Of a stretch of 64,000 bases of DNA, positions 44,988 to 56,092 are shown piece after piece. The position numbers were made by a program, and so were the translations under genes. How positions within the stretch are numbered: position 1 is the stretch's first letter; the number at the start of each line of letters is the position of its first letter. This DNA is from a virus. The stretch is from positions 1 through 64,000 of the IMG/VR virus record IMGVR_UViG_3300012685_000001, one strand, 5' to 3'. The notes under the pieces are model-generated. The model saw only the letters and a list, made by a program, of their open reading frames with translations, was not told where the DNA came from and did not search any database.

Positions 44988-44990
44988 AAG

Positions 44991-45074
44991 TGGGTGCAGA
45001 GAGACTTGAACTCCCAGAGACCGAAGTCGACGGCTTTACAGGCCGTAACGCTACCAATTACGTGTTATACACCC
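44991..45074 (-). tRNA. tRNA-Tyr(GTA)
   Basis: Cloverleaf; ACGGC-CT-GTA-AA-GCCGT; long variable arm. Confidence 0.9.
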
Positions 45075-45188
45075 ATTGTGCGCCGATGCCAATTCTTCGC
45101 CTGCCCCGGTATCCCGGACGCGCAAGCAATCAGCGCATTCCCCAGAGGTGGATTTTTCTATCGGGGACCCATATTTTATTATATTAAA

Positions 45189-45261
45189 GGGTGAAGTACG
45201 GGGATTGAACCCGCGAATCCTGAGTCACAGTCAGGTATGTTACCACTACATCAACTCCACC
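45189..45261 (-). tRNA. tRNA-His(GTG)
   Basis: CCTGA-CT-GTG-AC-TCAGG; G-1:C73. Confidence 0.9.
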
Positions 45262-45264
45262 ATA

Positions 45265-45341
45265 GCCGCAAGAAAGGGATTCGAACCCCCAACCTTCCCT
45301 CGAACATCGGGAATGCTCTTCCAATTGAGCTATCTTTTAGC
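45265..45341 (-). tRNA. Atypical or degenerate tRNA (9-nt anticodon loop, mismatched acceptor stem)
   Basis: Normal D and T arms; TTCCC-GATGTTCGA-GGGAA. Confidence 0.6.
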
Positions 45342-45343
45342 AG

Positions 45344-45415
45344 TCCGCCCACCGAGAATTGAACTCGGAACTAGACTTTATCAGAGTCTTGTGATAACCA
45401 TTTCACTACAGGCGA
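45344..45415 (-). tRNA. tRNA-Ile(GAT)
   Basis: AGACT-CT-GAT-AA-AGTCT. Confidence 0.88.
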
Positions 45416-45419
45416 TTAT

Positions 45420-45728
45420 TCAGTTGTGTTCTTTAATTATACCCATAAGTTTGAACTTAGGAAGTGCACCTACCTGATATTCTACTATCTTTCCCTTCTT
45501 GAAGAGAAGGAGAGTAGGGATAGATGATACATCATATTTCTTAACTGATACAGGATTTTTATCTGCGTTGATCTTTACTACTTCCAGCCACTCGTTCTCT
45601 GTTGCTATAGATTCTAACACAGGCGCCATCTGCTTGCAAGGACCACACCATGGAGCCCAGAAATCAACTAGTACTGGCTTCTCCGAGATCAAAACCTCAT
45701 CGAAAGTTCCATCAGTAATATCCCGCAT
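45420..45728 (-). CDS. trxA: Thioredoxin
   Basis: PVLVDFWAPWCGPCK, SIPTLLLFK.G. Confidence 0.95.
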   Translation of the reverse strand: MRDITDGTFDEVLISEKPVLVDFWAPWCGPCKQMAPVLESIATENEWLEVVKINADKNPVSVKKYDVSSIPTLLLFKKGKIVEYQVGALPKFKLMGIIKEHN

Positions 45729-45751
45729 TTATTCTCCTTATAGTATCAACG

Positions 45752-45825
45752 TACGCCCATCGGGATTTGAACCCGCATCGACTGCTTATAAGACAGTTGC
45801 TCTCACCTAATTGAGCTATAGGCGC
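45752..45825 (-). tRNA. tRNA-Ile(TAT)
   Basis: ACTGT-CT-TAT-AA-GCAGT; discriminator A. Confidence 0.88.
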
Positions 45826-45952
45826 ATGTCCCACTAATATAGCAGTTCTGCGAACGTCTGCATAGTCGATCTCTTTTCGCAGCTTACTTAAATCTTTATA
45901 CAAGATCCTGACTATGCGTAGTCCTTGTAAAGGGTAGTGAGCATACCCTAAG

Positions 45953-46037
45953 CGGAAGCAGAGGGATTCGAACCCCCAAGGCTTTTCAAGACCCAGCCGT
46001 TTTCAAGACGGTGTCCTCATCCGACCGGATTACTTCC
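45953..46037 (-). tRNA. tRNA-Ser(TGA)
   Basis: CCGT-CT-TGA-AA-ACGG; long variable arm; G73. Confidence 0.88.
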
Positions 46038-46108
46038 ATTAGGGGAATCATCCTCTACCCCCGTGTGTGGCCCCACCTTGAATGCATCCTTTGCCACTTC
46101 TGTTTAAT

Positions 46109-46204
46109 TCAACCTTTAGGATACTTACATTTAAAACAAACTCTATCAGTATCCCTATTCTTATATCTACAGTTATTACGAGAACATTGCCAAAATTCTA
46201 GCAT
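46109..46204 (-). CDS. 31-aa RanBP2-type zinc-finger microprotein
   Basis: AAGGAG RBS; MLEFWQCSRNNCRYKNRDTDRVCFKCKYPKG fits W-x-C-x4-C-x3-N-x6-C-x2-C. Confidence 0.7.
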   Translation of the reverse strand: MLEFWQCSRNNCRYKNRDTDRVCFKCKYPKG

Positions 46205-46222
46205 TAATCTCCTTAAGTGCTG

Positions 46223-46307
46223 CGGAGAGTACGGGATTTGAACCCGCTCAGGCTTGAGACCCTTACTACGTTTCCAACGTAGCTGCTAACCAATTCGCTT
46301 ACTCTCC
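46223..46307 (-). tRNA. tRNA-Ser(GGA)
   Basis: CTACG-TT-GGA-AA-CGTAG; long variable arm. Confidence 0.88.
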
Positions 46308-46312
46308 ATGCG

Positions 46313-46397
46313 AGGAAGAGATGGGATTCGAACCCACGGAGCTTTTACACCCTCAGTCTTAGCAGGACTGCCCGATAGACCTCTCTGGCACTCTTCC
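46313..46397 (-). tRNA. tRNA-Ser(GCT)
   Basis: CAGTC-CT-GCT-AA-GACTG; long variable arm. Confidence 0.88.
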
Positions 46398-46403
46398 ATT
46401 GTA

Positions 46404-46580
46404 CTATTTACGTATTAGATTACTCTCAAGAAAACATTGAGTTTCTCCCTTGGAACGTCCAGAAAGAATCTTTACTTGCCACAGTCTGTAACCTTCATGC
46501 CAGCCAATAACTTCTCCATCACGATTACCATGAACATTAAGAATATTGACCTGTGTATTTCCTGTCCATTGCTTAACCAT
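46404..46580 (-). CDS. Small SH3-like beta-barrel protein
   Basis: GGAGG RBS before MVKQW; G.VIG..WQVKI..G pattern. Confidence 0.55.
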   Translation of the reverse strand: MVKQWTGNTQVNILNVHGNRDGEVIGWHEGYRLWQVKILSGRSKGETQCFLESNLIRK

Positions 46581-46591
46581 ATCTCCTCCAG

Positions 46592-46669
46592 AGCGGATAG
46601 TCGGATTCGAACCGCAACCCAACAGCTTTGCAGGCTGTTTCCATCACCATCAGGATTAGGGCTATCCGC
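46592..46669 (-). tRNA. tRNA-Cys(GCA), atypical fold
   Basis: ACAGC-CT-GCA-AA-GCTGT; U73; 8-bp acceptor GCGGATAG/CTATCCGC and short T stem. Confidence 0.75.
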
Positions 46670-46677
46670 ATATTCAG

Positions 46678-46866
46678 TTATCTCTTATCAAGAGACAAGT
46701 ACATTGCGGGGAACTTAATGCTCTGTCCGCCATCCTCATAAATAAGGATGTATTTCTTGGTGAAGAATCCCACACGTTGAATAACTGTTCCTCGACGGCC
46801 CGTAAAAGGTCCACGAGTAATAACTATAGGATCACCTATAGAGTATACAATTTCATGTTTACCCAT
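46678..46866 (-). CDS. KOW-motif small protein
   Basis: IGDPIVITRGPFTGRRGTVI. Confidence 0.75.
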   Translation of the reverse strand: MGKHEIVYSIGDPIVITRGPFTGRRGTVIQRVGFFTKKYILIYEDGGQSIKFPAMYLSLDKR

Positions 46867-46883
46867 TTTAATATCCTTAAGTT

Positions 46884-46997
46884 TTAACTAGTAGAGTAAG
46901 AACACTTAGTACACACCAATGTAGGTGACTTGCTCCCATCACCATGAACAATAGGGGCACCAGATACCAAATTATGGGGCTTTCCATCTACACACAT
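46884..46997 (-). CDS. 37-aa putative zinc-ribbon microprotein
   Basis: AAGGA RBS; MCVDGKPH...LVCTKCSYSTS. Confidence 0.5.
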   Translation of the reverse strand: MCVDGKPHNLVSGAPIVHGDGSKSPTLVCTKCSYSTS

Positions 46998-47027
46998 TTA
47001 TTTTCCTTAGTTCCTAATTATATAATT

Positions 47028-47109
47028 GTGGAGCACTGGAGATTCGAACTCCAGTCTCAGCCCGTCCGACGTGCGGCTTTAAAGGCTGATCGACACCAAT
47101 TTGTGCCCC
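47028..47109 (-). ncRNA. Minimal tmRNA-like RNA (tRNA-like domain only)
   Basis: GGGGCAC/GTGCTCC-A acceptor with G3:U70; stemless D-loop AAATTGGTGTCGA; CAGCC/GGCTG helix; GAC then T arm TGGAG-TTCGAAT-CTCCA. Confidence 0.75.
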
Positions 47110-47117
47110 ATAGGAAG

Positions 47118-47181
47118 TACAGAAGTATGCTGCCATTACACCATACCCGGGCTGACGGAATCGAACCGTTCCTCTTCTATA
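47118..47181 (-). ncRNA. Circularly permuted tRNA-like element
   Basis: TATAGAAG, T arm, short linker, D arm TGGTGTAATGGCAGCAT, CTTCTGTA; T arm precedes D arm and the ends pair over 8 bp. Confidence 0.6.
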
Positions 47182-47186
47182 CAACG

Positions 47187-47257
47187 TACCCCGTAACAGA
47201 ATCGAACTGATGTCTACGCTTTGTAAGAGCGCCGCTCTCCCATTGAGCTAACAGGGC
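47187..47257 (-). tRNA. tRNA-Val(TAC)
   Basis: GCGCT-CT-TAC-AA-AGCGT. Confidence 0.88.
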
Positions 47258-47280
47258 AGGTGCCCCGAAGGGCTATTGAA

Positions 47281-47460
47281 TTATTTTCCCGGTTTCTTAT
47301 GAAACTCATCGCGCTTAACATTGCGAATCGTAACATCTTCAGAACCAGGGGTGTCATTCAGCGTAAGAGTATACTTATCACGCCTAATCGCACGAACTGT
47401 AGCAGGTCTACCCTTGTAGTGACCTCTGTCAATAACGACAACATCACCAACAATAATCAT
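47281..47460 (-). CDS. 59-aa KOW-motif protein
   Basis: Below ORF-track cutoff; AGGAG RBS; MIIVGDVVVIDRGHYKGRPATVRAI. Confidence 0.7.
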   Translation of the reverse strand: MIIVGDVVVIDRGHYKGRPATVRAIRRDKYTLTLNDTPGSEDVTIRNVKRDEFHKKPGK

Positions 47461-47468
47461 TATAACTC

Positions 47469-47645
47469 CTACTGCTTCTCAAGCTCTCCAGAACGATAAG
47501 TACGCTCAGCGCCCTTACTGGCACCAACACTTGCCTCTGTTGCCTTAACGGCAACAAGATCACGAGCTGAATCAACAGCTATAACCTTACCCACAAGGCC
47601 GTCAACAGCGCCTACCTTATCGCCAACATGAAGCTTCTTACCCAT
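47469..47645 (-). CDS. 58-aa SH3/KOW-like protein
   Basis: AGGAGG RBS; MGKKLHVGDKVGAVDGLVGKVIAVD..LVAVK. Confidence 0.65.
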   Translation of the reverse strand: MGKKLHVGDKVGAVDGLVGKVIAVDSARDLVAVKATEASVGASKGAERTYRSGELEKQ

Positions 47646-47668
47646 ATCATATCCTCCTTATTTGGAAG

Positions 47669-47746
47669 CGCCTCAGACAGGATTCGAACCTGCATACTCC
47701 GTTACCCTTTTAATGACCGGTTAGAAGCCGGGGGGGATACTAAGGC
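47669..47746 (-). tRNA. D-arm-less tRNA-Arg(TCT)-like RNA
   Basis: Normal acceptor and T arm; CCGG-CT-TCT-AA-CCGG nested in TCC/GGA and CCC/GGG stems; no 5' D loop. Confidence 0.65.
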
Positions 47747-47771
47747 AAGTCCGCCCGAAGGCGGGGTAATA

Positions 47772-47924
47772 CTAAAGCTTCTTAACAGGCACTGCAATAA
47801 CCGTGTGCATTCCGGTACGGACATCCTGAACCTCTACACCCTTAACGATCTTGGGAGCAGTCTCAACAGTTCCCGAGCCAACACCAGGAACATTCACCTT
47901 CGCGCCGACCGACTTCTTACCCAT
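47772..47924 (-). CDS. 50-aa SH3-like protein
   Basis: AAGGAG RBS; MGKKSVGAKVNVPGVGSGTV. Confidence 0.55.
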   Translation of the reverse strand: MGKKSVGAKVNVPGVGSGTVETAPKIVKGVEVQDVRTGMHTVIAVPVKKL

Positions 47925-47937
47925 TGCTTCTCCTTGG

Positions 47938-48405
47938 TTAGTCCCACCAGTAAGAACTATCATACTTGGAATCTGTGTGGGTGTCCACATCCCAGCAATC
48001 TTCTTCTGTGCAGCCACCATGGTCTCTGATGGCATTGTGCAGTACTTGTCTTATCTTAGAACGCTTGGCACCATTCGTCAAGCGCTTATAGTCCTTGTTA
48101 CTCTTCACATTGGGGTAATACTCAAGCCAGTAATGACAGTTCTTGTCACGTCTCCAACTATGGCCGCTGATCTCTGGAACATCAAGATCACAGTCTACCT
48201 GTTCAACGTGACATCTGAAAAGAGAACGCATGTACATCAACTCATCATGCCAGTGCCAGCCGTCTTTATCAAGAACGTAACGGTAAACTGGCTCTTCACC
48301 AATCTTTTCACGAATAGTAACAAGGTGATCATGACTAGCATAACGATCCATAGTGGGGTCATTCTTCATAACCCAATAAGGTCTGTCTTTACGAGTACGG
48401 GACAT
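47938..48405 (-). CDS. Hypothetical protein (MSRTRKDRPYWV N-terminus)
   Basis: GGAG RBS before ATG at 48405. Confidence 0.7.
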   Translation of the reverse strand: MSRTRKDRPYWVMKNDPTMDRYASHDHLVTIREKIGEEPVYRYVLDKDGWHWHDELMYMRSLFRCHVEQVDCDLDVPEISGHSWRRDKNCHYWLEYYPNVKSNKDYKRLTNGAKRSKIRQVLHNAIRDHGGCTEEDCWDVDTHTDSKYDSSYWWD

Positions 48406-48551
48406 TTCAACTCCCAAGGTAGTACTAAAGAAAAAATGTGCTTTGATCCGGAGCACTAACCGACCAGCTTGTATGTACGTGCTGGAACGCACTCTATGAC
48501 CTACGTGTTTAAATAGGGACAACCCTAGCATAGAACAGTCCTATGTCCCTG

Positions 48552-48623
48552 TAGTTCCAGGGAGACTCGAACTCCCACCAACGGCTTCGTAGGCCGGTAT
48601 GCTGTCCATTACACCATGGAACC
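48552..48623 (-). tRNA. tRNA-Arg(ACG)
   Basis: CGGC-CT-ACG-AA-GCCG. Confidence 0.88.
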
Positions 48624-48627
48624 AAAA

Positions 48628-48777
48628 TTACTGATGCTTCTTCTTATCGTGCTCTAATCGCATATACACTGCTACAGTTCTATAGAAATACCTATCAGAT
48701 ACAAATGTAGGATTACAAGCAATACAAGAAAATATGTATCTCTTATCCTCACCTTTACCTACTGAAGTTACTGCCAC
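48628..48777 (-). CDS. 49-aa CxxC...HxxxxH zinc-finger-like microprotein
   Basis: GTG overlapping upstream TAG; FSCIACN...EHDKKKH. Confidence 0.45.
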   Translation of the reverse strand: MAVTSVGKGEDKRYIFSCIACNPTFVSDRYFYRTVAVYMRLEHDKKKHQ

Positions 48778-49310
48778 TAGTTTCCCCGAACTTGCTTGGC
48801 AAGCTTACTATAGCCACGACGCTCATGCAAGTACTTTGTAAGCTTGCCTGGAGTCACAAGATACGGCGGAAGGTCTGTAAGAGATACACCTTCAGCATCA
48901 TAATCTGTTGCAACTAATTGAGAACAGATAAGATGATCAGAATCCTCAACGCGCTTAGAAATACCTGGATGTTTGATATGAAGACGATACAAAGCAATTG
49001 CTAAGTAATCAAGAAAACTATAAGGAATTCCCTTTTGATATATGGCTCTGGAAACAATATTATTACGTTGTATTGCTGTAAGGTGAATTAAATCAGTAGA
49101 CCACATGATAGCTCTACCATCGTACTCAGACAAATCAGATAATAAGGCACCACCAGGCATGGCTTCTACAATCTTCCCATTACCTACATAAATGAAGGCA
49201 TGCTCATAATTATAAAATCCATCTCCATTAAGAAATTGACCTAGGCGAATAAGAAAGCCTACGCCACCTTCAATGGATACTAAACCGAAATCCCCGGCAA
49301 TTGGTGCCAT
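48777..49310 (-). CDS. Permuted papain-like NlpC/P60 amidase (YiiX/YebB-like)
   Basis: HAFIYVG.G.IVEA, G.PY.F, ICSQLV (His before Cys); AGGAGG RBS. Confidence 0.8.
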   Translation of the reverse strand: MAPIAGDFGLVSIEGGVGFLIRLGQFLNGDGFYNYEHAFIYVGNGKIVEAMPGGALLSDLSEYDGRAIMWSTDLIHLTAIQRNNIVSRAIYQKGIPYSFLDYLAIALYRLHIKHPGISKRVEDSDHLICSQLVATDYDAEGVSLTDLPPYLVTPGKLTKYLHERRGYSKLAKQVRGN

Positions 49311-49330
49311 ATTTCCTCCTATTAGTAAAG

Positions 49331-49403
49331 TGATCCATGTCAGACTCGAACTGACGCGCTTCGGATTAAAAGTCCGCTGCTCTACCAACTGAGCTAATGG
49401 ATC
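49331..49403 (-). tRNA. tRNA-Lys(TTT)
   Basis: CGGA-CT-TTT-AA-TCCG. Confidence 0.9.
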
Positions 49404-49536
49404 ATGTGTCCATAAGAGACCCCCTTCGGGAACCGCATACAGGACTGGTATGGCCAGATCAGGTGCGCACGCTGTCTGGTAGGCAATTTACGGTACAAAG
49501 CCGTAGGGATTGTTCCTAGCTACACTATCTTAAAGT

Positions 49537-49986
49537 TTACTTACCAGTTCCAGCCTTGGCAGTAATGGTAGGAACACCAGCTTCACCAGAAGGAACATAG
49601 ATAACAGTGTTATTCTTACCAGACTTAGCAATACTTTCCATTGCCTGAATCATCTCGAACTGAACATAAAGAGGAGTCAGAGTCTTGGCAATCTCATCCT
49701 GAGCCTTACGAACACCTACAGACTGCTCATAGCGAATCTGAGCCTGCTGCTTTGTAACTTGAATACGCTGCTTCTGATTACGAATCTCAATATCCGTTAC
49801 CTTAACAGTATTATTCGCGTGAATCAATGCGATATTAGCGTTATTCTTAGCATCCGCAGTATTTTGACTACGACTGAATGCCTTGAAGCCTGCTGTAGCA
49901 CCCATGATAATACCTAGCAGAAGAAACAATCCAAGCGCGCCTGCCAGAACAATCCTGACACCATTCTTAAAATCTTCCTTGTCCAC
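49537..49986 (-). CDS. Membrane-anchored coiled-coil protein (band-7/SPFH C-terminal-like)
   Basis: N-terminal TM helix; IA.TLTP.Y.Q...I..VIYVP.G..G.P ending. Confidence 0.65.
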   Translation of the reverse strand: MDKEDFKNGVRIVLAGALGLFLLLGIIMGATAGFKAFSRSQNTADAKNNANIALIHANNTVKVTDIEIRNQKQRIQVTKQQAQIRYEQSVGVRKAQDEIAKTLTPLYVQFEMIQAMESIAKSGKNNTVIYVPSGEAGVPTITAKAGTGK

Positions 49987-50020
49987 TGTGCTCCCAATTA
50001 GTATTCCATTTAAACTAACG

Positions 50021-50103
50021 TGATTCGGGTGGGATTCGAACCCACGTAGGATTTCTCCGGCAGATTAAGAGTCTGCTCCAATTGGCCGCTCTGGCACCGA
50101 ATC
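50021..50103 (-). tRNA. tRNA with CTT (Lys) anticodon and long variable arm
   Basis: GCAGA-CT-CTT-AA-TCTGC; variable hairpin GGA-GAAA-TCC. Confidence 0.85.
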
Positions 50104-50150
50104 ATGTCCCGGTTCTTTCTTATAGGGGAACCGCGCTACTAAGACCCAAG

Positions 50151-50222
50151 TGGAGCTACGGGGACTCGAACCCCGAATTGAAGTATGCAAAACTTCCGTG
50201 TTACCGTTCACACTATAGCCCC
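50151..50222 (-). tRNA. tRNA-Ala(TGC)
   Basis: GAAGT-TT-TGC-AT-ACTTC; G3:U70. Confidence 0.9.
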
Positions 50223-50277
50223 ATTGTGAGGACTTAACCGGTCCTCAGCGGGTATAACTACTTTAGCAGACTAGATC

Positions 50278-51858
50278 TTACTTTGCAACCCAAGGCCACG
50301 TCTGTGATATTCCAGCTTCTATCAAAGGAATCATCTGGAAACCCTTGTCAGTCAGTCCACCAAAGGTGTGACGCTTCTTGGAACCAGATTCACTCTGGCC
50401 AACAGCATACCCTCCGAGGTTCCAGGTGTAGACAGGAACATTAGCAGGTACAGAAGCAACAGGATCTCCACCGTAACCATTGTACTGCTCATCAGTGATG
50501 ATCACAATACGGTCATGGTTCTTGAAGTTGCCGTTGACTGCTCCACGGGTATCAGTTCCACCCATGCTCTTGAACTTACTCAGCATAGGAAGAACAGACT
50601 GACCCTTACGGAAAGAAACTGTTTCGAAAGAAGGTCCACGCCATGCGTCACCAAACTGTACCAGATCTGCATTTTCAGCACGAAGTGCTAGTGCTGAACC
50701 AAAGATAGCAGCCGTGTCAGCTCTGTCAAGTCCCTGAGTTCCTCCGTTAGAAGTAAACATGGAACCAGAACGGTCAACCAGAACCAGTGTACGTCCCTTC
50801 AGAGAAGGCACATTGCTCAGAGAAGCCTCAAGGGCAGTCTCAAGCGCCGCAGCGATCTGAAGAGTATCCTTGTTGGCCTGGTAAGCAGCAAGGAATCGGA
50901 AAGGGAACTGCTTACTCTTGGCAACCTGCGCAGGATCAGCAAGTTTTGCAAGAACATTCTGCATCACTGGGACACTAATTCGGGCATCCTGGAAGTTCCG
51001 CAAGTTTCGAAGAAGTGCCATATATCCCATGGAAGGAATAACAGCTTCCCAGGCAACAGCATCCATAGGACCCTGAAGCCATCCGGAAAGAGCTTCCCAA
51101 GTCATTCCAGCATTCTTCATACGAGTAGCGTCCAGAAGGCCAGTAACTATTGCGCCCTTACGGTTTTCTACTGGAATACGCATTATATACTTTCGCGTAT
51201 TAATCATCTCTAGTACGCCTGGAACAATCTCTACATTTCCATAACGACTAGCAAGAGCGTACTTGAACAACTGCTCCTGAATCTCGTTATCAGGCTTAGG
51301 GTGAGTCAACTGAAGAACATCCGCGAAACGGTATCCCACAGAAGTATCGTACTTAAGAAGACTGTACTCGTTATACAACTTCTTGGCACCATCCGCAACA
51401 CCCTTCTTAAGGAAGGATGGGAAGTTCTTCCCGTACTTGGACTCGTAATAAGCCAGCACCTCACCAGGCTCATCAGCACGAGCCATAGAAGCGGCTACAA
51501 GGCCCCTAGGAGTCCCATTCAGCTGTCCTGAGTCCCAAAGGGCCTTGGCACCTTCTACACCCGCTACAATCGCCGCTGAACGCATGAAGGCAGAGTTACG
51601 AAGCCAATAGACGAAACCGGCAAACCAGAATGAATTAGTTACCGCTACTTCGGCACACAACTTGGAGAAACGGTCATCACGGCTCTTGGCGTTCTCATAG
51701 AACGTATCCTGACCGACAAAGTTGGAAACTGCTAGCAAGAACAACTCAGATTGCTTAGTGCGCACAAAACCTGCCTTGAAGTCAGCATTCAGTGCTGCCT
51801 GAGTAGTCTTGACAGGAGAAGTAGTTCCTGTCTTCTTTACCTGATTGAACTTGCCCAT
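50278..51858 (-). CDS. rsr: Ro60 / TROVE-domain RNA-binding protein with C-terminal vWA domain
   Basis: ELFLLAV..TFYE, RADEP, DVLQL.HPKP, TWEAL, MGYMALLRNLRN, SKQFPFRF, MIDAS DRSGSM, GGT, IITDEQ. Confidence 0.93.
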   Translation of the reverse strand: MGKFNQVKKTGTTSPVKTTQAALNADFKAGFVRTKQSELFLLAVSNFVGQDTFYENAKSRDDRFSKLCAEVAVTNSFWFAGFVYWLRNSAFMRSAAIVAGVEGAKALWDSGQLNGTPRGLVAASMARADEPGEVLAYYESKYGKNFPSFLKKGVADGAKKLYNEYSLLKYDTSVGYRFADVLQLTHPKPDNEIQEQLFKYALASRYGNVEIVPGVLEMINTRKYIMRIPVENRKGAIVTGLLDATRMKNAGMTWEALSGWLQGPMDAVAWEAVIPSMGYMALLRNLRNFQDARISVPVMQNVLAKLADPAQVAKSKQFPFRFLAAYQANKDTLQIAAALETALEASLSNVPSLKGRTLVLVDRSGSMFTSNGGTQGLDRADTAAIFGSALALRAENADLVQFGDAWRGPSFETVSFRKGQSVLPMLSKFKSMGGTDTRGAVNGNFKNHDRIVIITDEQYNGYGGDPVASVPANVPVYTWNLGGYAVGQSESGSKKRHTFGGLTDKGFQMIPLIEAGISQTWPWVAK

Positions 51859-51860
51859 TC

Positions 51861-52064
51861 CTATTCTCCTATTTTCTCGAAGCGCTGCATACGCTTGCCA
51901 TCACGTTCTACATACTCAACAAACTCATCCAAGGGACGCACTGAAATAATACCTTCTCCGTATTGCGCTGCATAAACTACCACATCTCTCCAGGAGCCAC
52001 TTTCCTTTGCAAGGAACAGGACTCTATAAAGATTTCCCTTAAAATGTCTGTACAGCCCATGCAT
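51861..52064 (-). CDS. DUF1653-like SH3-fold protein
   Basis: G.YRHFKG..Y.V, VVVY, VRP..EF, RF. Confidence 0.85.
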   Translation of the reverse strand: MHGLYRHFKGNLYRVLFLAKESGSWRDVVVYAAQYGEGIISVRPLDEFVEYVERDGKRMQRFEKIGE

Positions 52065-52149
52065 TGTACCTCCTATTTGTAGTACGTTATAAAGACAAAA
52101 ATAATCCCCTAAAGTGCACTTTCGTGGACCTAGGGGAGGATTAAAAATA

Positions 52150-52258
52150 AGTTCCTAGAAAAAACGGTGTGAGGTATATAGGCGCCGTGCCTTAAGGGGA
52201 CTCGAACCCCATGGGTTTCATATCAATTGAAGTAACCCCGTACCTTCGCATCGGAACT
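52150..52258 (-). ncRNA. Y RNA-like gene C (Ro-binding stem plus isolated T arm)
   Basis: Shared CGATGCGAAG..GTTACTTCA and TTTCTAG terminal stem; internal GGGG-TTCGAGT-CCCC. Confidence 0.75.
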
Positions 52259-52266
52259 AAAAAATA

Positions 52267-52341
52267 TACCCTAGAAAAAACGCCTACAGTGCTTTTTGAT
52301 TACCAATTAATTTGAAGTAACTGTTGGCTACGCATCGGGTA
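52267..52341 (-). ncRNA. Y RNA-like gene B (Ro-binding stem only)
   Basis: CGATGCGTAG..GTTACTTCA and TTTCTAG stem closed by short AU-rich loop. Confidence 0.72.
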
Positions 52342-52359
52342 AAGCTTATTAAATTTTAA

Positions 52360-52500
52360 GACAACTAGAAAGAATCGATAAAAGTGCTTTATATACCGCT
52401 GCTCTGCCTCTGAGCTATCAACCATAGAATTGGCTGAGAAGGATTCGAACCTTCGTCACGCGGTTCCCTGTGAAGTAACTCTTATCTTCGCATCGCTGTC
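52360..52500 (-). ncRNA. yrlA: YrlA-type Y RNA A (Ro-binding stem plus full permuted tRNA-like domain)
   Basis: Terminal stem; ACCGC..T arm GAAGG-TTCGAAT-CCTTC; closed acceptor TCAGCCA/TGGTTGA; D arm TAGCTCAGAGGCAGAGC; GCGGT; next to Ro60. Confidence 0.85.
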
Positions 52501-52568
52501 AAACTTAATAGATCTAGGCTCGGTTTCGACGTATCGCAAGATACCCTTGACAGCGTTCAAGATCTAAG

Positions 52569-52640
52569 CTCCCCGAGCTGGATTCGAACCAACAACCGGT
52601 CGATTAACAGTCGACTGCTCTGCCGTTGAGCTATCGGGGA
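52569..52640 (-). tRNA. tRNA-Asn(GTT)
   Basis: GTCGA-CT-GTT-AA-TCGAC. Confidence 0.92.
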
Positions 52641-52676
52641 ATAAACTCTATCCACAAGGAATAGAGTGGGTTAAAG

Positions 52677-52747
52677 CATGAGCTAGAGGATTTGAACCCC
52701 TGATGGCGGTTTTGGAGACCGACGTGTTACCACTACACTAAGCTCAT
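52677..52747 (-). tRNA. tRNA-Trp(CCA)
   Basis: CGGT-CT-CCA-AA-ACCG. Confidence 0.9.
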
Positions 52748-52763
52748 ATAGCCCGAAGGCTTT

Positions 52764-52970
52764 TTACTTAATGGAATTAACTACACCCGTTAATCCATCA
52801 TTTACAGCACTAGGCAACTTAGGGAAATTCGATACTAGCAGAATTCCCAACATAGCACCAGCTACAATCTGTGCCAGCTTCCAACCCTGCTTAAGAATCA
52901 TAACCCAAATGAAAAGGCCCATAAGTCCAACAGTTCCCAGAAAAGCTAGCAATGCATGTACGATATCCAT
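52764..52970 (-). CDS. Small two-helix membrane protein
   Basis: Hydrophobic 68-aa ORF. Confidence 0.65.
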   Translation of the reverse strand: MDIVHALLAFLGTVGLMGLFIWVMILKQGWKLAQIVAGAMLGILLVSNFPKLPSAVNDGLTGVVNSIK

Positions 52971-53045
52971 TTTTAACCCCTAGAAAGTTCTTGTCGTTCT
53001 CTCTTGTAGAGAAGCTTACTAAGAGTCTGTGGTACTTGTCAAGCG

Positions 53046-53119
53046 TACCCACGGGGAGACTCGAACTCCCAAGCTCCTGAGCCTAAATCAGACGGCTGTG
53101 CCAATTCGCCTACGCGGGC
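53046..53119 (-). tRNA. tRNA-Leu(TAG), short variable loop
   Basis: TCTGA-TT-TAG-GC-TCAGG. Confidence 0.87.
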
Positions 53120-53197
53120 ATAACGACAGTTTTTCTGAAGCCCAACTTAATGGATGCTGTGCTCTTACTCTTCAGAGGGCAAACTGTCAACCTCACG

Positions 53198-53270
53198 TAG
53201 TCCTAGTCGGATTCGAACCGACGCTGTCTCGATTTTAAGTCGAGTGTCTCTTCCGCTGGACTATAGGACC
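53198..53270 (-). tRNA. tRNA-Leu(TAA), short variable loop
   Basis: CTCGA-CT-TAA-AA-TCGAG. Confidence 0.88.
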
Positions 53271-53276
53271 AAGATG

Positions 53277-53350
53277 TACTCCTGGTCGGACTTGAACCGA
53301 CACTAACATAGTTTTTGAAACTATGGCCTCTGCCTTTGGGCTACAGGAGC
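53277..53350 (-). tRNA. tRNA-Leu(CAA), short variable loop
   Basis: ATAGT-TT-CAA-AA-ACTAT. Confidence 0.88.
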
Positions 53351-53494
53351 ATAAGTGACTGTCTGGATTCTCAATCCAGCGCCACTACACAGGTCTTTAG
53401 CGTTTAGTCGGATCATATCTTGGCTTTTATTGTACCCCGGAAGTACCTTCCAAGTCAAGACGACCGTGCCAGGAGTTACTGTGCAGAACCTAAG

Positions 53495-53566
53495 AGCCCC
53501 TTCCCGGATTCGAACCGAGCACTTGGCTTTACAAGAGCCGCGCTTTTCCTACTAAGCTAAAGGGGC
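53495..53566 (-). tRNA. tRNA-Thr(TGT)
   Basis: GGCT-CT-TGT-AA-AGCC. Confidence 0.88.
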
Positions 53567-53603
53567 AAGAGCCATTGTACTAGCCCAATGGCAGGCTGTC
53601 AAA

Positions 53604-53918
53604 TTATGCTGTTCCAGTAGCCTTTACCACAAAGTCAACAGTATCGTTGATTGTGGCCTGGTTTGGAAGAGCGAAAATAGAAGCGTTGTTCACATAAATT
53701 GTCCATAGGACAGAAGTATTGGTAACAGGATTACCCGCACTATCAGTTCCAGGTGGAACATCAGCGGCTACGATCTTCTTAACTGTAGAAGGAAAAGAAG
53801 CACCACCAGTTGTAGGAACTGGGAACACATAAGCATGTCCATCAGCACATACAATAGCACGAACCTGATCATTCACAGCAAGAGCATCAGCCTTGACAAT
53901 CGTATAAGTAAAAGCCAT
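53604..53918 (-). CDS. Hypothetical protein
   Basis: 104-aa ORF between tRNAs with AAGG RBS. Confidence 0.65.
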   Translation of the reverse strand: MAFTYTIVKADALAVNDQVRAIVCADGHAYVFPVPTTGGASFPSTVKKIVAADVPPGTDSAGNPVTNTSVLWTIYVNNASIFALPNQATINDTVDFVVKATGTA

Positions 53919-53994
53919 TTGTTAAACCTTTCTAGAAAGAATCACTAAGTGATCGCTATAGCTCTTTTAGTATATAGCATTTCTTTCTGAAACG

Positions 53995-54066
53995 TACTCC
54001 CAGAGGGAATTGAACCCTCTCCTAGGGCTTGAAAGACCCTGATACTAACCAATATACGATGGGAGC
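53995..54066 (-). tRNA. tRNA-Glu(TTC)
   Basis: AGGGT-CT-TTC-AA-GCCCT. Confidence 0.88.
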
Positions 54067-54263
54067 ATAACTATTGGTACTGGTAGGGCTTGCCAGTTTC
54101 GAACCTGAGCCTTTATTTCAGAATATCCAATAGTATCCGAGTCTAGTCCCACACATACTTCCTCGGTTTGCAGCATCTGACAGGCAGCCTATCTCTATTT
54201 TGGCTAGCAGTCTGTAGGAACCGATAGTCCCCCAGCGTCTTTGAGACCTGTCAGGTGTGATGC

Positions 54264-54337
54264 TGGTATCCCTACAGGGACTTGAACCCTGTCTAGAAGC
54301 TTGAGAAGCTTCCGTACTACCTATATACGATAGGGAC
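54264..54337 (-). tRNA. tRNA-Glu(CTC), CCA encoded
   Basis: GAAGC-TT-CTC-AA-GCTTC. Confidence 0.88.
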
Positions 54338-54519
54338 ATTAAATGGCTGGTGGTCTCATCCCTTGTGACTACTTAGTTCCGCCACAAACTAAGGTTACTC
54401 CCACCTGGCGGCACCTGCCCTGTCTCTCGCCGCTTCTCAACACGGACAACCATCGGATGGATGATAATTGCCAGCACTCCTCGTCTTCCTTGTGGGAAGA
54501 ACTGTCCATCACGTGCACG

Positions 54520-54591
54520 CGCCCCATACGGGAATTGAACCCGCCGATTCAAGCGTGACAAGCTTGTGACCACCCAGCAGTCTCATGGGGC
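54520..54591 (-). tRNA. tRNA-Asp(GTC)
   Basis: CAAGC-TT-GTC-AC-GCTTG; G73. Confidence 0.85.
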
Positions 54592-54624
54592 AACAAAGTG
54601 CCCTTTAAGGTAGGACACAAACCT

Positions 54625-54927
54625 TTACTTCTTTAAATCTGTCTCAGGCCACGATAATATCGCCCTTTGCTCAACAACCGTACCATGGTTAACTACAGCT
54701 CGGGAAATATCTGAATAATCTTCGCCATACCGCAGAATTATCAAGTAGTTGTTGGGATAAAGCTTAGCAACCTCTTCCAGATCTGTCAACCAGGCATACC
54801 ATTTGGAAGCTGACAGAGTTATATTTTCCTGCCACTCATCCCACTTGTAGCCAGAAGCACCATTGAGAACATCAGCTACAAAAGGTATATCTGTTCCATC
54901 TACTTCAAAATTTGAGTAATAACCCAT
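54625..54927 (-). CDS. Hypothetical protein
   Basis: AGGAG RBS; MGYYS.F..KWY..GED pattern. Confidence 0.7.
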   Translation of the reverse strand: MGYYSNFEVDGTDIPFVADVLNGASGYKWDEWQENITLSASKWYAWLTDLEEVAKLYPNNYLIILRYGEDYSDISRAVVNHGTVVEQRAILSWPETDLKK

Positions 54928-54944
54928 ATTTATCTCCTAACGCG

Positions 54945-55016
54945 CTGGAGTACTAGGATTCGAACCTAGACTGTCCTGATCCAAAGTCAGGTGGGCTGCC
55001 GTTACCCCATACTCCA
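54945..55016 (-). tRNA. tRNA-Gln(TTG)
   Basis: CCTGA-CT-TTG-GA-TCAGG; U1-A72. Confidence 0.9.
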
Positions 55017-55313
55017 AAGTGGTCCCTCGTGAGTGCCTTACCAAGATAATAGTCTTGACGCACTGCTTTTCAGTATCTTCCCGGCACTTTCCCACACCTT
55101 TACCATGGTTATTACATGTGTTCCAGATTCGTTCTTTTCCCAATTCTGTACGAGCGTTTAACAACTCTACCTGCCAAAAGATAGAGTAAATGGTTGGACG
55201 TAGCTTGGCTTATCCCCAAGTTTCGACCTTGTCTTCATTTGCAACTTATCTAGAAAACGGCAAACTATCATCCGGCTTATCCTTGCTCTTGTGCACTGAG
55301 CTTTGGCGTCCAG

Positions 55314-55384
55314 CTCCCCGACCTAGATTCGAACTAAGTCTAACGGTGTCAGAGACCGTTGTGCTGCCGTTACACCATCGGGGA
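55314..55384 (-). tRNA. tRNA-Gln(CTG)
   Basis: ACGGT-CT-CTG-AC-ACCGT; U1-A72. Confidence 0.9.
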
Positions 55385-55489
55385 ATAAACTAGGTGCGGA
55401 TTATAAATACCTTTATCGCTCCAGAAGAGCAGTTGGTCCCTAGCAACCAAAAATAGTGCCCTGCTATTACTAGCTGTTTATGGGCTAAG

Positions 55490-55562
55490 AGCGGTATGCC
55501 AGATTCGAACTGGCTCTTATAGTTTGGAAGACTATCGTGCTGCCGTTGAACACTAATACCGC
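55490..55562 (-). tRNA. tRNA-Gly(TCC)
   Basis: ATAGT-CT-TCC-AA-ACTAT; U73. Confidence 0.9.
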
Positions 55563-55669
55563 ATTGTATGGATTTTTATTGACCGTGCTTCCCCGCAGGG
55601 GCTAGACTTCCATGTCGTATGACCTACCATACTTCAGACACACTAGGTCGTCAAACTGATCGAATTGGG

Positions 55670-55742
55670 AGCGCAGGTGGGAGTCAAACCCTACTACTTT
55701 CCAGGTTATGAGCCTGGTGAGACATCGTTTCTCTATCCGCGC
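55670..55742 (-). tRNA. tRNA-Met(CAT), atypical, possibly initiator-like
   Basis: CCAGG-CT-CAT-AA-CCTGG; D loop lacks GG and T loop is TTTGACT. Confidence 0.7.
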
Positions 55743-55744
55743 AG

Positions 55745-55816
55745 TGGTTATGAAGGGACTCGAACCCTCGCGTACCGGGATATGAATCCGGCGCTCTGCC
55801 TCTGAGCTACATAACC
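55745..55816 (-). tRNA. tRNA-Met(CAT), elongator-type
   Basis: CCGG(A)-TT-CAT-AT-(C)CCGG. Confidence 0.85.
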
Positions 55817-55870
55817 ATAATCATGGTTTTTTATTGTGTTCCGCTACGGGATAACCATAAACCCGTAAAG

Positions 55871-55941
55871 TGGCCCCCACCGGACTTGAACCGATATTCA
55901 GCGGGCTTCAACCGCTTGTATTTCCTTTATACGAAAGAGCC
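55871..55941 (-). tRNA. tRNA-Phe(GAA)
   Basis: AGCGG-TT-GAA-GC-CCGCT. Confidence 0.87.
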
Positions 55942-56020
55942 ATAATGAGTTATTACCTGGTATTGAACATCATATCTATTATTTATTATGAGGATGTATA
56001 TACGTGCTGATAACTCAAAG

Positions 56021-56092
56021 TCGGATGCCTCAGAGTCGAACTGAGTTTATCTTGGTCCCAAACCAAGCGGATTACCGTCTTCCTCGCACCCG
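56021..56092 (-). tRNA. tRNA-Pro(TGG)
   Basis: CTTGG-TT-TGG-GA-CCAAG; C1-G72, A73. Confidence 0.9.

What the first reader, a model, noticed from the sequence alone, without database searches (positions are those of the whole stretch)
47669..47746. Rewired cloverleaf: D-arm-less tRNA-Arg(UCU) with loops moved 3' of the anticodon
After acceptor and TA the chain runs TCC-CCC-CCGG straight into a canonical CT-TCT-AA loop and returns CCGG-TCATTAAAA-GGG-TAAC-GGA to a normal T arm. All seven consecutive Cs are accounted for by pairing, which argues for selection. It is the only candidate AGA decoder in the set, sits next to Arg(ACG) in the isoacceptor order, and AGA codons are common in the phage genes.
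Basis: partly seen in the sequence, partly recalled or inferred. Interest (0 to 1): 0.72.

Follow-up and report, generated by a model that had tools for sequence, protein, structure and literature searches.

The report
Rewired non-cloverleaf phage arginine tRNA
This 78-base gene in a Streptomyces-type phage is very probably a working arginine tRNA (reads AGA) with no D hairpin: a short helix formed by strands on either side of the anticodon arm replaces the D stem, a layout shared by well over a hundred phages and described in no paper I could find.

Summary
ARAGORN misses it and the Rfam tRNA model scores 28.3 bits, just under its cut-off of 29.

It is not a decayed tRNA. I collected 160 distinct relatives from phage genomes and viral metagenome contigs. 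Every helix covaries, including a 3-bp helix X that joins the bases just after U8-A9-N10 to three bases 3' of the anticodon arm. A D-loop-like UAAYUGGA...AU follows, then a normal T arm.

The supported pairs are C11-G42, C12-G41 and C13-G40.

Evidence for function:
- Four cultured relatives (BRock, GiJojo, Alone3, pSt2308) carry an ordinary tRNA-Arg(UCU) in exactly this slot.
- This genome has no other AGA reader, yet AGA makes up 32% of its arginine codons.
- A syntenic relative keeps the gene at 94% identity against about 70% in the flanks, with a compensatory change in helix X.
- The base after GG is A in arginine-type members. It is U in sister genes with isoleucine anticodons. Both match the known position-20 identity rules.

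Charging and decoding are untested. Earlier notes of this scan record the same family on other DNA.

The parts
47669..47746 (-). Whole rewired tRNA-Arg(UCU) gene, 78 nt (tRNA position p = 47747 minus the coordinate)
   Evidence: Rfam RF00005 hits the same coordinates at 28.3 bits. Family model R1 scores it 77 bits, E 6e-22 (the gene is part of the model's training alignment).
47740..47746 (-). Acceptor stem 5' strand GCCUUAG (positions 1-7)
   Evidence: Pairs with 47670-47676. In the family 6 of the 7 pairs show double changes and 99.4% of cells are paired.
47737..47739 (-). U8 A9 U10 connector
   Evidence: UA is present in 98 of 98 members when that motif was not forced. Position 10 is U 74, C 18, G 4, A 2.
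47734..47736 (-). Helix X, 5' strand CCC (positions 11-13)
   Evidence: Pairs with GGG at 47705-47707. Family pair types are GC43/UA26/CG13/AU8 and CG41/GC39/UA5. C11 is present in 98 of 98.
47728..47732 (-). Anticodon stem 5' strand CCCGG (positions 15-19); the first pair is C.U here
   Evidence: Covariation. The C.U first pair recurs in 11 of 90 members.
47721..47727 (-). Anticodon loop CUUCUAA; anticodon UCU at 47723-47725
   Evidence: Sequence read. In the family the anticodon is UCU in 128 genes and UCG, ACG or CCU in 10.
47716..47720 (-). Anticodon stem 3' strand CCGGU (positions 27-31)
47708..47715 (-). 8-nt bulge CAUUAAAA between the anticodon stem and helix X (positions 32-39)
   Evidence: The 8-nt class has consensus CRUUAANN. 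Other members have 3 to 5 nt here. No pairing partner was found by mutual information.
47705..47707 (-). Helix X, 3' strand GGG (positions 40-42)
   Evidence: The syntenic ortholog L035 has CGC/GCG, a compensatory change.
47694..47704 (-). D-loop-like connector UAACGGAGUAU (positions 43-53), read by analogy as A14, A15, Y16, G18, G19, A20 ... A21, U48
   Evidence: With the motif not forced, GG is present in 98 of 98 members and GGA in 96 of 98. The base after GG tracks anticodon identity: A for Arg, U for Ile.
47677..47693 (-). T arm GCAGG-UUCGAAU-CCUGU (positions 54-70)
   Evidence: Its first 16 of 17 bases are identical to the T arm of BRock's canonical tRNA-Arg(UCU); only the last stem base differs.
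47669..47676 (-). Acceptor 3' strand CUGAGGC plus discriminator G; followed by C, then no CA
   Evidence: Nearly all other tRNAs of the array have the same N73-C74 then non-CA context.
47751..47764 (-). Upstream hairpin CCGCC-UUCG-GGCGG, ending 4 nt before the gene
   Evidence: Sequence read. A similar UUCG hairpin precedes BRock's canonical gene. Its function is unknown.

Best explanation
The gene encodes a functional elongator tRNA-Arg that reads AGA (and perhaps AGG) for a low-GC phage related to Streptomyces phages. It has a normal acceptor stem, T arm and anticodon arm, but its core is wired differently from a cloverleaf. After U8-A9-U10, three bases (C11-C13) pair with three bases (G40-G42) that lie 3' of the anticodon arm. 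This helix X encloses and stacks on the anticodon stem, giving a three-way rather than a four-way junction.

From helix X the chain runs through a D-loop-like UAACGGAGUAU into the T arm. Inferred: G47 and G48 play the role of G18 and G19 and contact the T loop to form the elbow. A49 plays the role of A20, the main ArgRS identity base. The stack of helix X plus the anticodon stem (3 + 1 + 5 layers) keeps roughly the length of the normal D-stem plus anticodon-stem stack. The three new chain joins connect residues that are neighbours in the canonical L shape.

The RNA is presumably cut out of the array transcript by RNase P and the 3' processing enzymes, completed with CCA by the host enzyme, and charged by host ArgRS.

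Shown here: the helices, the conservation, the syntenic replacement of a canonical gene, and the codon demand. Inferred: the 3D shape, processing, charging and decoding.
For: - Family and covariation. 90 distinct relatives came from one IMG/VR pattern scan and 160 in all. 98.3% of cells are paired, against 64% in shuffles and 38-46% in slid controls. Helix X shows four Watson-Crick pair types and almost no mismatches.
- Independent structure predictions. RNAalifold predicts the same structure unprompted. Mutual information recovers helix X separately in three length classes.
- Synteny. BRock, GiJojo, Alone3 and pSt2308 (portal about 78% identical) each have a canonical 74-nt tRNA-Arg(tct) in the slot Arg(acg) - gene - [here] - small genes - Val(tac). 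The flanking genes are homologous. None of the four has a rewired copy.
- Purifying selection. The syntenic IMG/VR relative L035 has the rewired gene at 93.7% identity against 66-75% in most flanking DNA, with CCC/GGG changed to CGC/GCG.
- Demand. The 113-kb genome has 28 called tRNAs and no other UCU tRNA. AGA is 32% of Arg codons.
- Identity elements. Members with Arg anticodons have GGA in 96 of 98 when the motif was not forced, and discriminator G, A or U. Sister genes with UAU, GAU or CAU anticodons have GGU in 20 of 22 and A73 in 22 of 22. This matches the bacterial identity sets: Arg uses A20, C35, U/G36 and A/G/U73; Ile uses U20, U21 and A73 (PMC9976931 Table 1).
- Substitution. In 49 tRNA arrays that carry a rewired UCU gene, at most 4 also have an ARAGORN Arg(tct) call, and some of those calls are the rewired gene itself.
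- End context. The 3' context (N73, C74, no CA) is the same as for the other tRNAs of the array.
- Tolerance. E. coli translation accepts an engineered tRNA that lacks the D arm (PMC11551756).
Against: - There is no expression, processing, aminoacylation or decoding data for this gene or, as far as I could find, for any member.
- The first anticodon-stem pair is a C.U mismatch here.
- The 3D argument rests on textbook tertiary contacts, not on a model.
- Many family members were retrieved with patterns that fix some motifs, so the conservation of those motifs is only partly unbiased.
- The host is inferred from relatives only.
Confidence: 0.8

Rival explanations
1. It is a tRNA-like decoy or regulator rather than a decoder. 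On this reading a conserved RNA mimics tRNA-Arg(UCU) to soak up or mislead a host factor, for example an anticodon nuclease or a tRNA-modifying or tRNA-degrading enzyme, and is not used by the ribosome.
For: The core is non-canonical and standard finders reject it. The window holds other odd tRNA-like RNAs, including a mini-tmRNA-like element and a Ro60/TROVE gene, so this phage plainly deals in RNA mimics. No functional data exist.
Against: It sits where relatives keep a canonical tRNA-Arg(UCU), and the genome has no other AGA reader despite 32% AGA usage. The position-20 equivalent and the discriminator track the synthetase identity rules for Arg and Ile, which a nuclease decoy would not need. 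Anticodons are limited to Arg and Ile sets rather than to one target.
Confidence: 0.12
2. It is a functional tRNA that folds: one long anticodon hairpin with all seven Cs paired (TCC/GGA, CCC/GGG, CCGG/CCGG) and two 3' bulges.
For: This is the minimum-energy fold of the single sequence, -22.9 kcal/mol.
Against: In 90 relatives the inner helix in that register is paired in 34% of cells and the variable outer pair is unpaired in 51 of 90. The ortholog L035 cannot form it. The GGA it consumes is the conserved, identity-linked GGA.
Confidence: 0.05
3. It is a decaying tRNA pseudogene, a canonical tRNA-Arg(UCU) that lost its D arm and gained junk sequence.
For: It falls below the Rfam cut-off, ARAGORN does not call it, and it has a C.U mismatch in the anticodon stem.
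Against: The same architecture with compensatory changes occurs in at least 160 distinct genes from phages of Streptomyces, Escherichia, Klebsiella and many uncultured viruses. It is 94% conserved against about 70% in the flanks in a relative.
Confidence: 0.02

Closest known systems
Canonical bacterial and phage class I tRNA-Arg(UCU) (Rfam RF00005), for example the 74-nt gene in the same slot of Streptomyces phage BRock (NC_048650.1, 97773-97846)
   Same: 7-bp acceptor stem; a T arm that matches BRock's in its first 16 of 17 bases; 5-bp anticodon stem with loop CUUCUAA; U8 and A9; a GG-A motif; discriminator A or G; the same position in the array; and the same presumed job.
   Different: There is no D hairpin between position 9 and the anticodon stem. 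A 3-bp helix is formed across the anticodon arm. The D-loop-like bases lie between that helix and the T arm. The junction is three-way, not four-way.
D-arm-lacking mitochondrial tRNAs, such as metazoan mt tRNA-Ser(AGY) with anticodon GCU or UCU
   Same: There is no D hairpin, and the connector regions on either side of the anticodon arm take over. They read AGN codons. (This rests on general knowledge and on the papers listed.)
   Different: The phage RNA keeps the GG motif and a canonical T loop, so the elbow contact is probably retained. It is 74-89 nt long, not shortened. It works, if it works, with bacterial cytoplasmic enzymes. The sequences show no relationship.
Engineered 'mini HisT', a D-armless tRNA used by evolved E. 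coli (PMC11551756)
   Same: It shows that bacterial synthetase, EF-Tu and ribosome can use a tRNA without a D arm.
   Different: It is artificial, has a different amino-acid identity, has no replacement helix or relocated D-loop, and needed a pnp mutation for stability. That paper states that all known bacterial tRNAs are cloverleaves.
Rewired tRNA-Ile-type genes (anticodons UAU, GAU, CAU) in viral contigs, for example L148, L165 and L190
   Same: They share the same architecture and motifs: GUAUC, helix X, GUA..GG, and the T arm.
   Different: They have A35 in place of C35, GGU(U) in place of GGA, and A73 in all 22.

Membership tests
Canonical cloverleaf tRNA (Rfam RF00005 / ARAGORN) | 7-bp acceptor stem with a discriminator base | tested here: met
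   GCCUUAG/CUGAGGC plus G. The family covaries at 6 of the 7 pairs.
Canonical cloverleaf tRNA (Rfam RF00005 / ARAGORN) | T arm of 5 bp with a UUCRANY loop | tested here: met
   GCAGG-UUCGAAU-CCUGU.
Canonical cloverleaf tRNA (Rfam RF00005 / ARAGORN) | Anticodon arm with a 7-nt loop, U33 and a purine at 37 | tested here: met
   Loop CUUCUAA. Four Watson-Crick pairs plus C.U in this gene; most relatives have 5 bp.
Canonical cloverleaf tRNA (Rfam RF00005 / ARAGORN) | D hairpin (stem 10-13/22-25 and its loop) between position 9 and the anticodon stem | tested here: not met
   Only 5 nt lie between A9 and the anticodon stem. The Rfam alignment shows 4 nt where the model has 15.
Canonical cloverleaf tRNA (Rfam RF00005 / ARAGORN) | Reaches the curated score or is called by gene finders | tested here: not met
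   28.3 bits against a cut-off of 29. ARAGORN gives no call in bacterial, mitochondrial or intron modes and misses 123 of 127 relatives.
   R1 scores 77 bits, though the gene is in R1's training alignment. Helix X covaries.
   UAACGGAGUAU in this gene. With the motif not forced, GG occurs in 98 of 98 relatives and GGA in 96 of 98.
Bacterial tRNA-Arg identity set (A20, C35, U/G36, A/G/U73; PMC9976931) | C35, U36 and a permitted discriminator | tested here: met
   Anticodon UCU and G73; identity set taken.
Bacterial tRNA-Arg identity set (A20, C35, U/G36, A/G/U73; PMC9976931) | A20 in the variable pocket | tested here: inconclusive
   An A follows GG, and across the family it switches to U exactly in the Ile-type genes. 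That it occupies the position-20 pocket in 3D is an inference.
Bacterial tRNA-Arg identity set (A20, C35, U/G36, A/G/U73; PMC9976931) | Charged by ArgRS | not testable with these tools
   This needs an aminoacylation assay.
Permuted, split or intron-containing tRNA genes | 3' half encoded before the 5' half, or a removable insert that restores a cloverleaf | tested here: not met
   The acceptor halves are in normal order. No contiguous deletion yields a D hairpin. ARAGORN's intron mode finds nothing.

The most novel reading that the evidence does not exclude
The rewired core is not a neutral oddity but an adaptation. On this reading these phage tRNAs (Arg for AGA and CGN codons, Ile for AUA and AUY codons) keep every surface that the synthetase, EF-Tu and the ribosome need. 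They present a different D-arm face, so that host tRNA-targeting defences, host tRNA-degrading enzymes, or the phage's own attack on host tRNAs do not recognise them. That would make them a natural class of shape-orthogonal tRNAs.
Probability: 0.2. Interest if true: 0.92.

Novelty: new variant of a known kind. Interest (0 to 1): 0.8.

Why it matters
The cloverleaf is treated as universal outside animal mitochondria, and a 2024 paper states that all known bacterial tRNAs have it (PMC11551756). If this reading holds, a widespread natural tRNA class uses a three-way junction with a relocated D-loop and still works with bacterial ArgRS and IleRS, EF-Tu and ribosomes. That would show the L shape can be reached by a second wiring. 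It would give ready-made scaffolds for orthogonal tRNA design. It would also mean phage tRNA inventories are systematically undercounted, because ARAGORN missed 97% of the relatives tested here. For this phage it fills the otherwise missing AGA decoder.

Tried and rejected
- ARAGORN with lowered thresholds, mitochondrial modes and intron mode gave no sensible call.
- I tested a crossing hairpin between the bulge (CRUUA) and UAAYG after helix X, which would give a pseudoknot. The R/Y positions do not covary, short-bulge members cannot form it, and mutual information finds only nested helices.
- A fourth helix X pair (14 with the last bulge base) is mostly A.C or C.A and is not supported.
- I searched for a second rewired copy in this genome and in four cultured relatives and found none.
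- Seven literature searches on phage tRNA, D-arm and non-cloverleaf terms found no description. Subscription-only papers are not covered.
- The promoter and terminator scan around the gene showed nothing informative.
- Folding the gene with its flanks gave no significant structure, z = +0.6.

Full report
**Observation**

On the minus strand, 47746 to 47669 reads GCCUUAG-UA-UCCCCCCCGG-CUUCUAA-CCGG-UCAUUAAAAGGGUAACGGAGUAU-GCAGG-UUCGAAU-CCUGU-CUGAGGC-G. ARAGORN lists 28 tRNAs in the window, all on the minus strand, but not this one. It also fails in mitochondrial, intron and low-threshold modes. The Rfam tRNA model matches exactly these coordinates at 28.3 bits (cut-off 29), with the D arm reduced to 4 nt and a 19-nt insertion before the T arm. 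So the sequence is as described, and the single sequence alone proves little.

**Relatives**

A blastn search of the surrounding 700 bp against 50,697 phage records matched only these 65-80 nt. The matches were in 131 records:
- Streptomyces phages (Francob, Yaboi, Mildred21 and others);
- phi92-like phages, 121Q, and Bas93/94 of E. coli;
- phages of Klebsiella, Proteus and Serratia.

In those records the stretch is unannotated or is called tRNA-OTHER, Val(aac), Phe(gaa) or Leu(taa). This shows that annotators' tools also stumble on it. Over all loci fetched I count 160 distinct genes with this architecture.

**Structure**

On the 90-sequence alignment, the structure I propose has these helices:
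- the acceptor stem;
- helix X (columns 11-13 with 45-47);
- the anticodon stem;
- the T stem.

It is paired in 98.3% of cells, against 64% in column shuffles and 38-46% when partners are slid by 1 to 3 columns. The covariation score is 0.86 against 0.20.

Helix X is the new element. C11-G is invariant. The next pair is GC 43, UA 26, CG 13, AU 8 with no mismatch. The third is CG 41, GC 39, UA 5. RNAalifold predicts the same consensus structure without being told. A position-anchored mutual-information scan recovers the helix X pairs separately in the 8-nt, 4-nt and 5-nt bulge classes, and finds no crossing pairs.

Its inner helix is paired in 34% of cells, and the only variable pair of its outer TCC/GGA helix is unpaired in 51 of 90. 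In this gene the supported pairs are C11-G42, C12-G41 and C13-G40. C14 is free, C15.U31 is a mismatch, and C16-G19 pair with C27-G30. The C run makes both possible on paper, but the ortholog L035 (CGC/GCG) can form only the family register.

**Unbiased conservation**

A scan that fixed neither the 5' motif nor GGA gave 98 good members. All have U8-A9 and C11. All have GG in the 3' connector, and 96 have GGA.

The layout is therefore: acceptor, then U8 A9 N10, then helix X 5' strand, one free base, the anticodon arm, a bulge of 3-8 nt, helix X 3' strand, then U-A-A-Y-(U)-G-G-A-...-A-U, then the T arm.

The 3' connector reads like a D loop (A14, R15, Y16, Y17, G18, G19, A20 ... A21) fused to Y48. 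My 3D reading is inference from the textbook tertiary contacts of the L shape:
- Helix X stacks on the anticodon stem in the place of the D stem. That is 3 + 1 + 5 layers against the canonical 4 + 1 + 5.
- GG reaches the T loop.
- The three new chain joins are 9 to the top of the helix, the bulge to its bottom, and the A21-like base to U48. Each joins residues that are neighbours in a normal tRNA.

**Function: context**

The genome is 113,467 bp with 44.6% G+C. It has one tRNA array and no other UCU tRNA. AGA is 32% of Arg codons, level with CGU.

The portal protein is 78% identical to those of Streptomyces phages BRock, Alone3, LuckySocke, GiJojo and pSt2308. The host is therefore probably a Streptomyces. 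By general knowledge these hosts have about 72% G+C and very rare AGA codons.

In BRock the array reads Arg(acg), gp181, Arg(tct), two small genes, Val(tac). GiJojo, Alone3 and pSt2308 have the same canonical 74-nt Arg(tct) between Arg(acg) and Val(tac). Here the rewired gene occupies that slot. It lies between a gp181 homolog (49% identity, E 2e-53) and a small-gene homolog. A UUCG hairpin lies just upstream in both phages. The four relatives have no rewired copy.

An uncultured relative, L035 on a 111-kb contig, has the same gene order with the rewired gene. That gene is 93.7% identical over 95 nt, while most flanking segments are 66-75% identical. It carries compensatory changes in the acceptor stem and helix X. 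So a canonical AGA reader was replaced by the rewired one in a sub-lineage and has been kept under selection.

Across the family, of 49 arrays that carry a rewired UCU gene, at most 4 also have an ARAGORN Arg(tct) call, and some of those calls are the rewired gene itself. The loci are partial, so this count is approximate.

**Function: identity**

With the anticodon left free, the architecture carries only two sets of anticodons. One set is Arg: UCU 128, UCG 6, ACG 2, CCU 2. The other is xAU: UAU 11, GAU 7, CAU 4.

| Anticodon set | Base after GG | Discriminator |
|---|---|---|
| Arg-type | A in 96 of 98 (motif not forced) | G, A or U |
| xAU-type | U in 20 of 22 (often UU) | A in 22 of 22 |

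The published bacterial identity sets are A20, C35, U/G36 and A/G/U73 for Arg. For Ile they are U20, U21, A35, U36 and A73 (PMC9976931 Table 1). A base that switches with the anticodon exactly as position 20 should is hard to explain unless these RNAs are read by ArgRS and IleRS. It also supports equating GGN with G18-G19-N20.

The gene's 3' end has G73, then C, then no CA. This matches the rest of the array, which suggests shared processing and CCA completion by the host.

**Distribution**

The same strict pattern found only 21 places in 596 Gb of bacterial and archaeal genomes. Most are MAG contigs of phage-like size or contigs with phage tRNA arrays. One, in Brucella cytisi, lies among PHROG-matching genes. 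In viral contigs, by contrast, related pattern scans stopped at their limit of about 120 rows. The family is therefore essentially viral.

**Known or new**

Rfam 15 has no family for it beyond the sub-threshold tRNA hit. Seven full-text searches found no description. A 2024 paper states that all known bacterial tRNAs are cloverleaves, and shows that E. coli can use an engineered D-armless tRNA (PMC11551756).

Earlier notes of this scan, made by other agents on other genomes, describe the same family and also found no paper. One of those notes was marked 'part of it fell', without saying which part. One describes a pseudoknot, for which I find no support in the subfamilies examined here.

**Verdict**

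The gene is a member of a large, apparently undescribed class of non-cloverleaf phage tRNAs, and here it is the phage's AGA decoder. Charging, decoding and the 3D fold remain to be shown.

Noticed in passing
window 47026-47109 (-): An 84-nt mini-tmRNA-like element. Rfam tmRNA scores 36.4 bits (cut-off 47, E 1e-12). The tRNA-like domain is intact, but 15 nt stand in place of the roughly 300-nt message and pseudoknot part.
   Followed up: partly
window 45954-46037 (-): An 84-nt tRNA-like gene with loop CUUGAAA (anticodon UGA, Ser). ARAGORN does not call it. Its best match is the tRNA-Sec model at 36.2 bits (cut-off 47). The relative L035 has an ARAGORN Ser(tga) at the matching place.
   Followed up: partly
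window 46596-46666 (-): A weak tRNA-Sec-like match, 26.9 bits, E 0.01. BRock annotates a tRNA-Cys(gca) in the corresponding interval.
   Followed up: no
window 50278-51858 (-): A 526-aa protein with a TROVE (Ro60-like) domain (E 5e-17) and a weak vWA match, encoded in the middle of the tRNA array. BRock calls its counterpart an RNA-binding protein.
   Followed up: partly
IMG/VR loci, e.g. L148, L165, L190, L144: The same rewired architecture with anticodons UAU, GAU and CAU (isoleucine-type), with GGU(U) instead of GGA and A73 in all 22. UCU and UAU differ by one base at position 35.
   Followed up: partly
window 47281-47460 and 47469-47645 (-): Two ORFs of 58-59 aa between the rewired gene and tRNA-Val. 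One has weak KOW and uL24-like matches (E 0.0015-0.004). Both are conserved in L035; for BRock only the 47469-47645 ORF was compared, and the match is weak.
   Followed up: partly
window 44990-56092 (-): Nearly all tRNAs of the array end in N73-C74 followed by a non-CA trailer, so none carries a full CCA except possibly Glu(ctc) and one Met.
   Followed up: partly
L328 (Brucella cytisi NZ_JBCAUP010000002.1): A rewired UCU gene in a cultured bacterium's scaffold, next to PHROG-matching helicase and methyltransferase genes. It is probably in a prophage.
   Followed up: partly
L325 (Pyrinomonadaceae MAG contig, 636 kb): A phage-style array of 19 tRNAs within 6 kb, plus a rewired UCU gene, in a contig binned as bacterial.
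   Followed up: no
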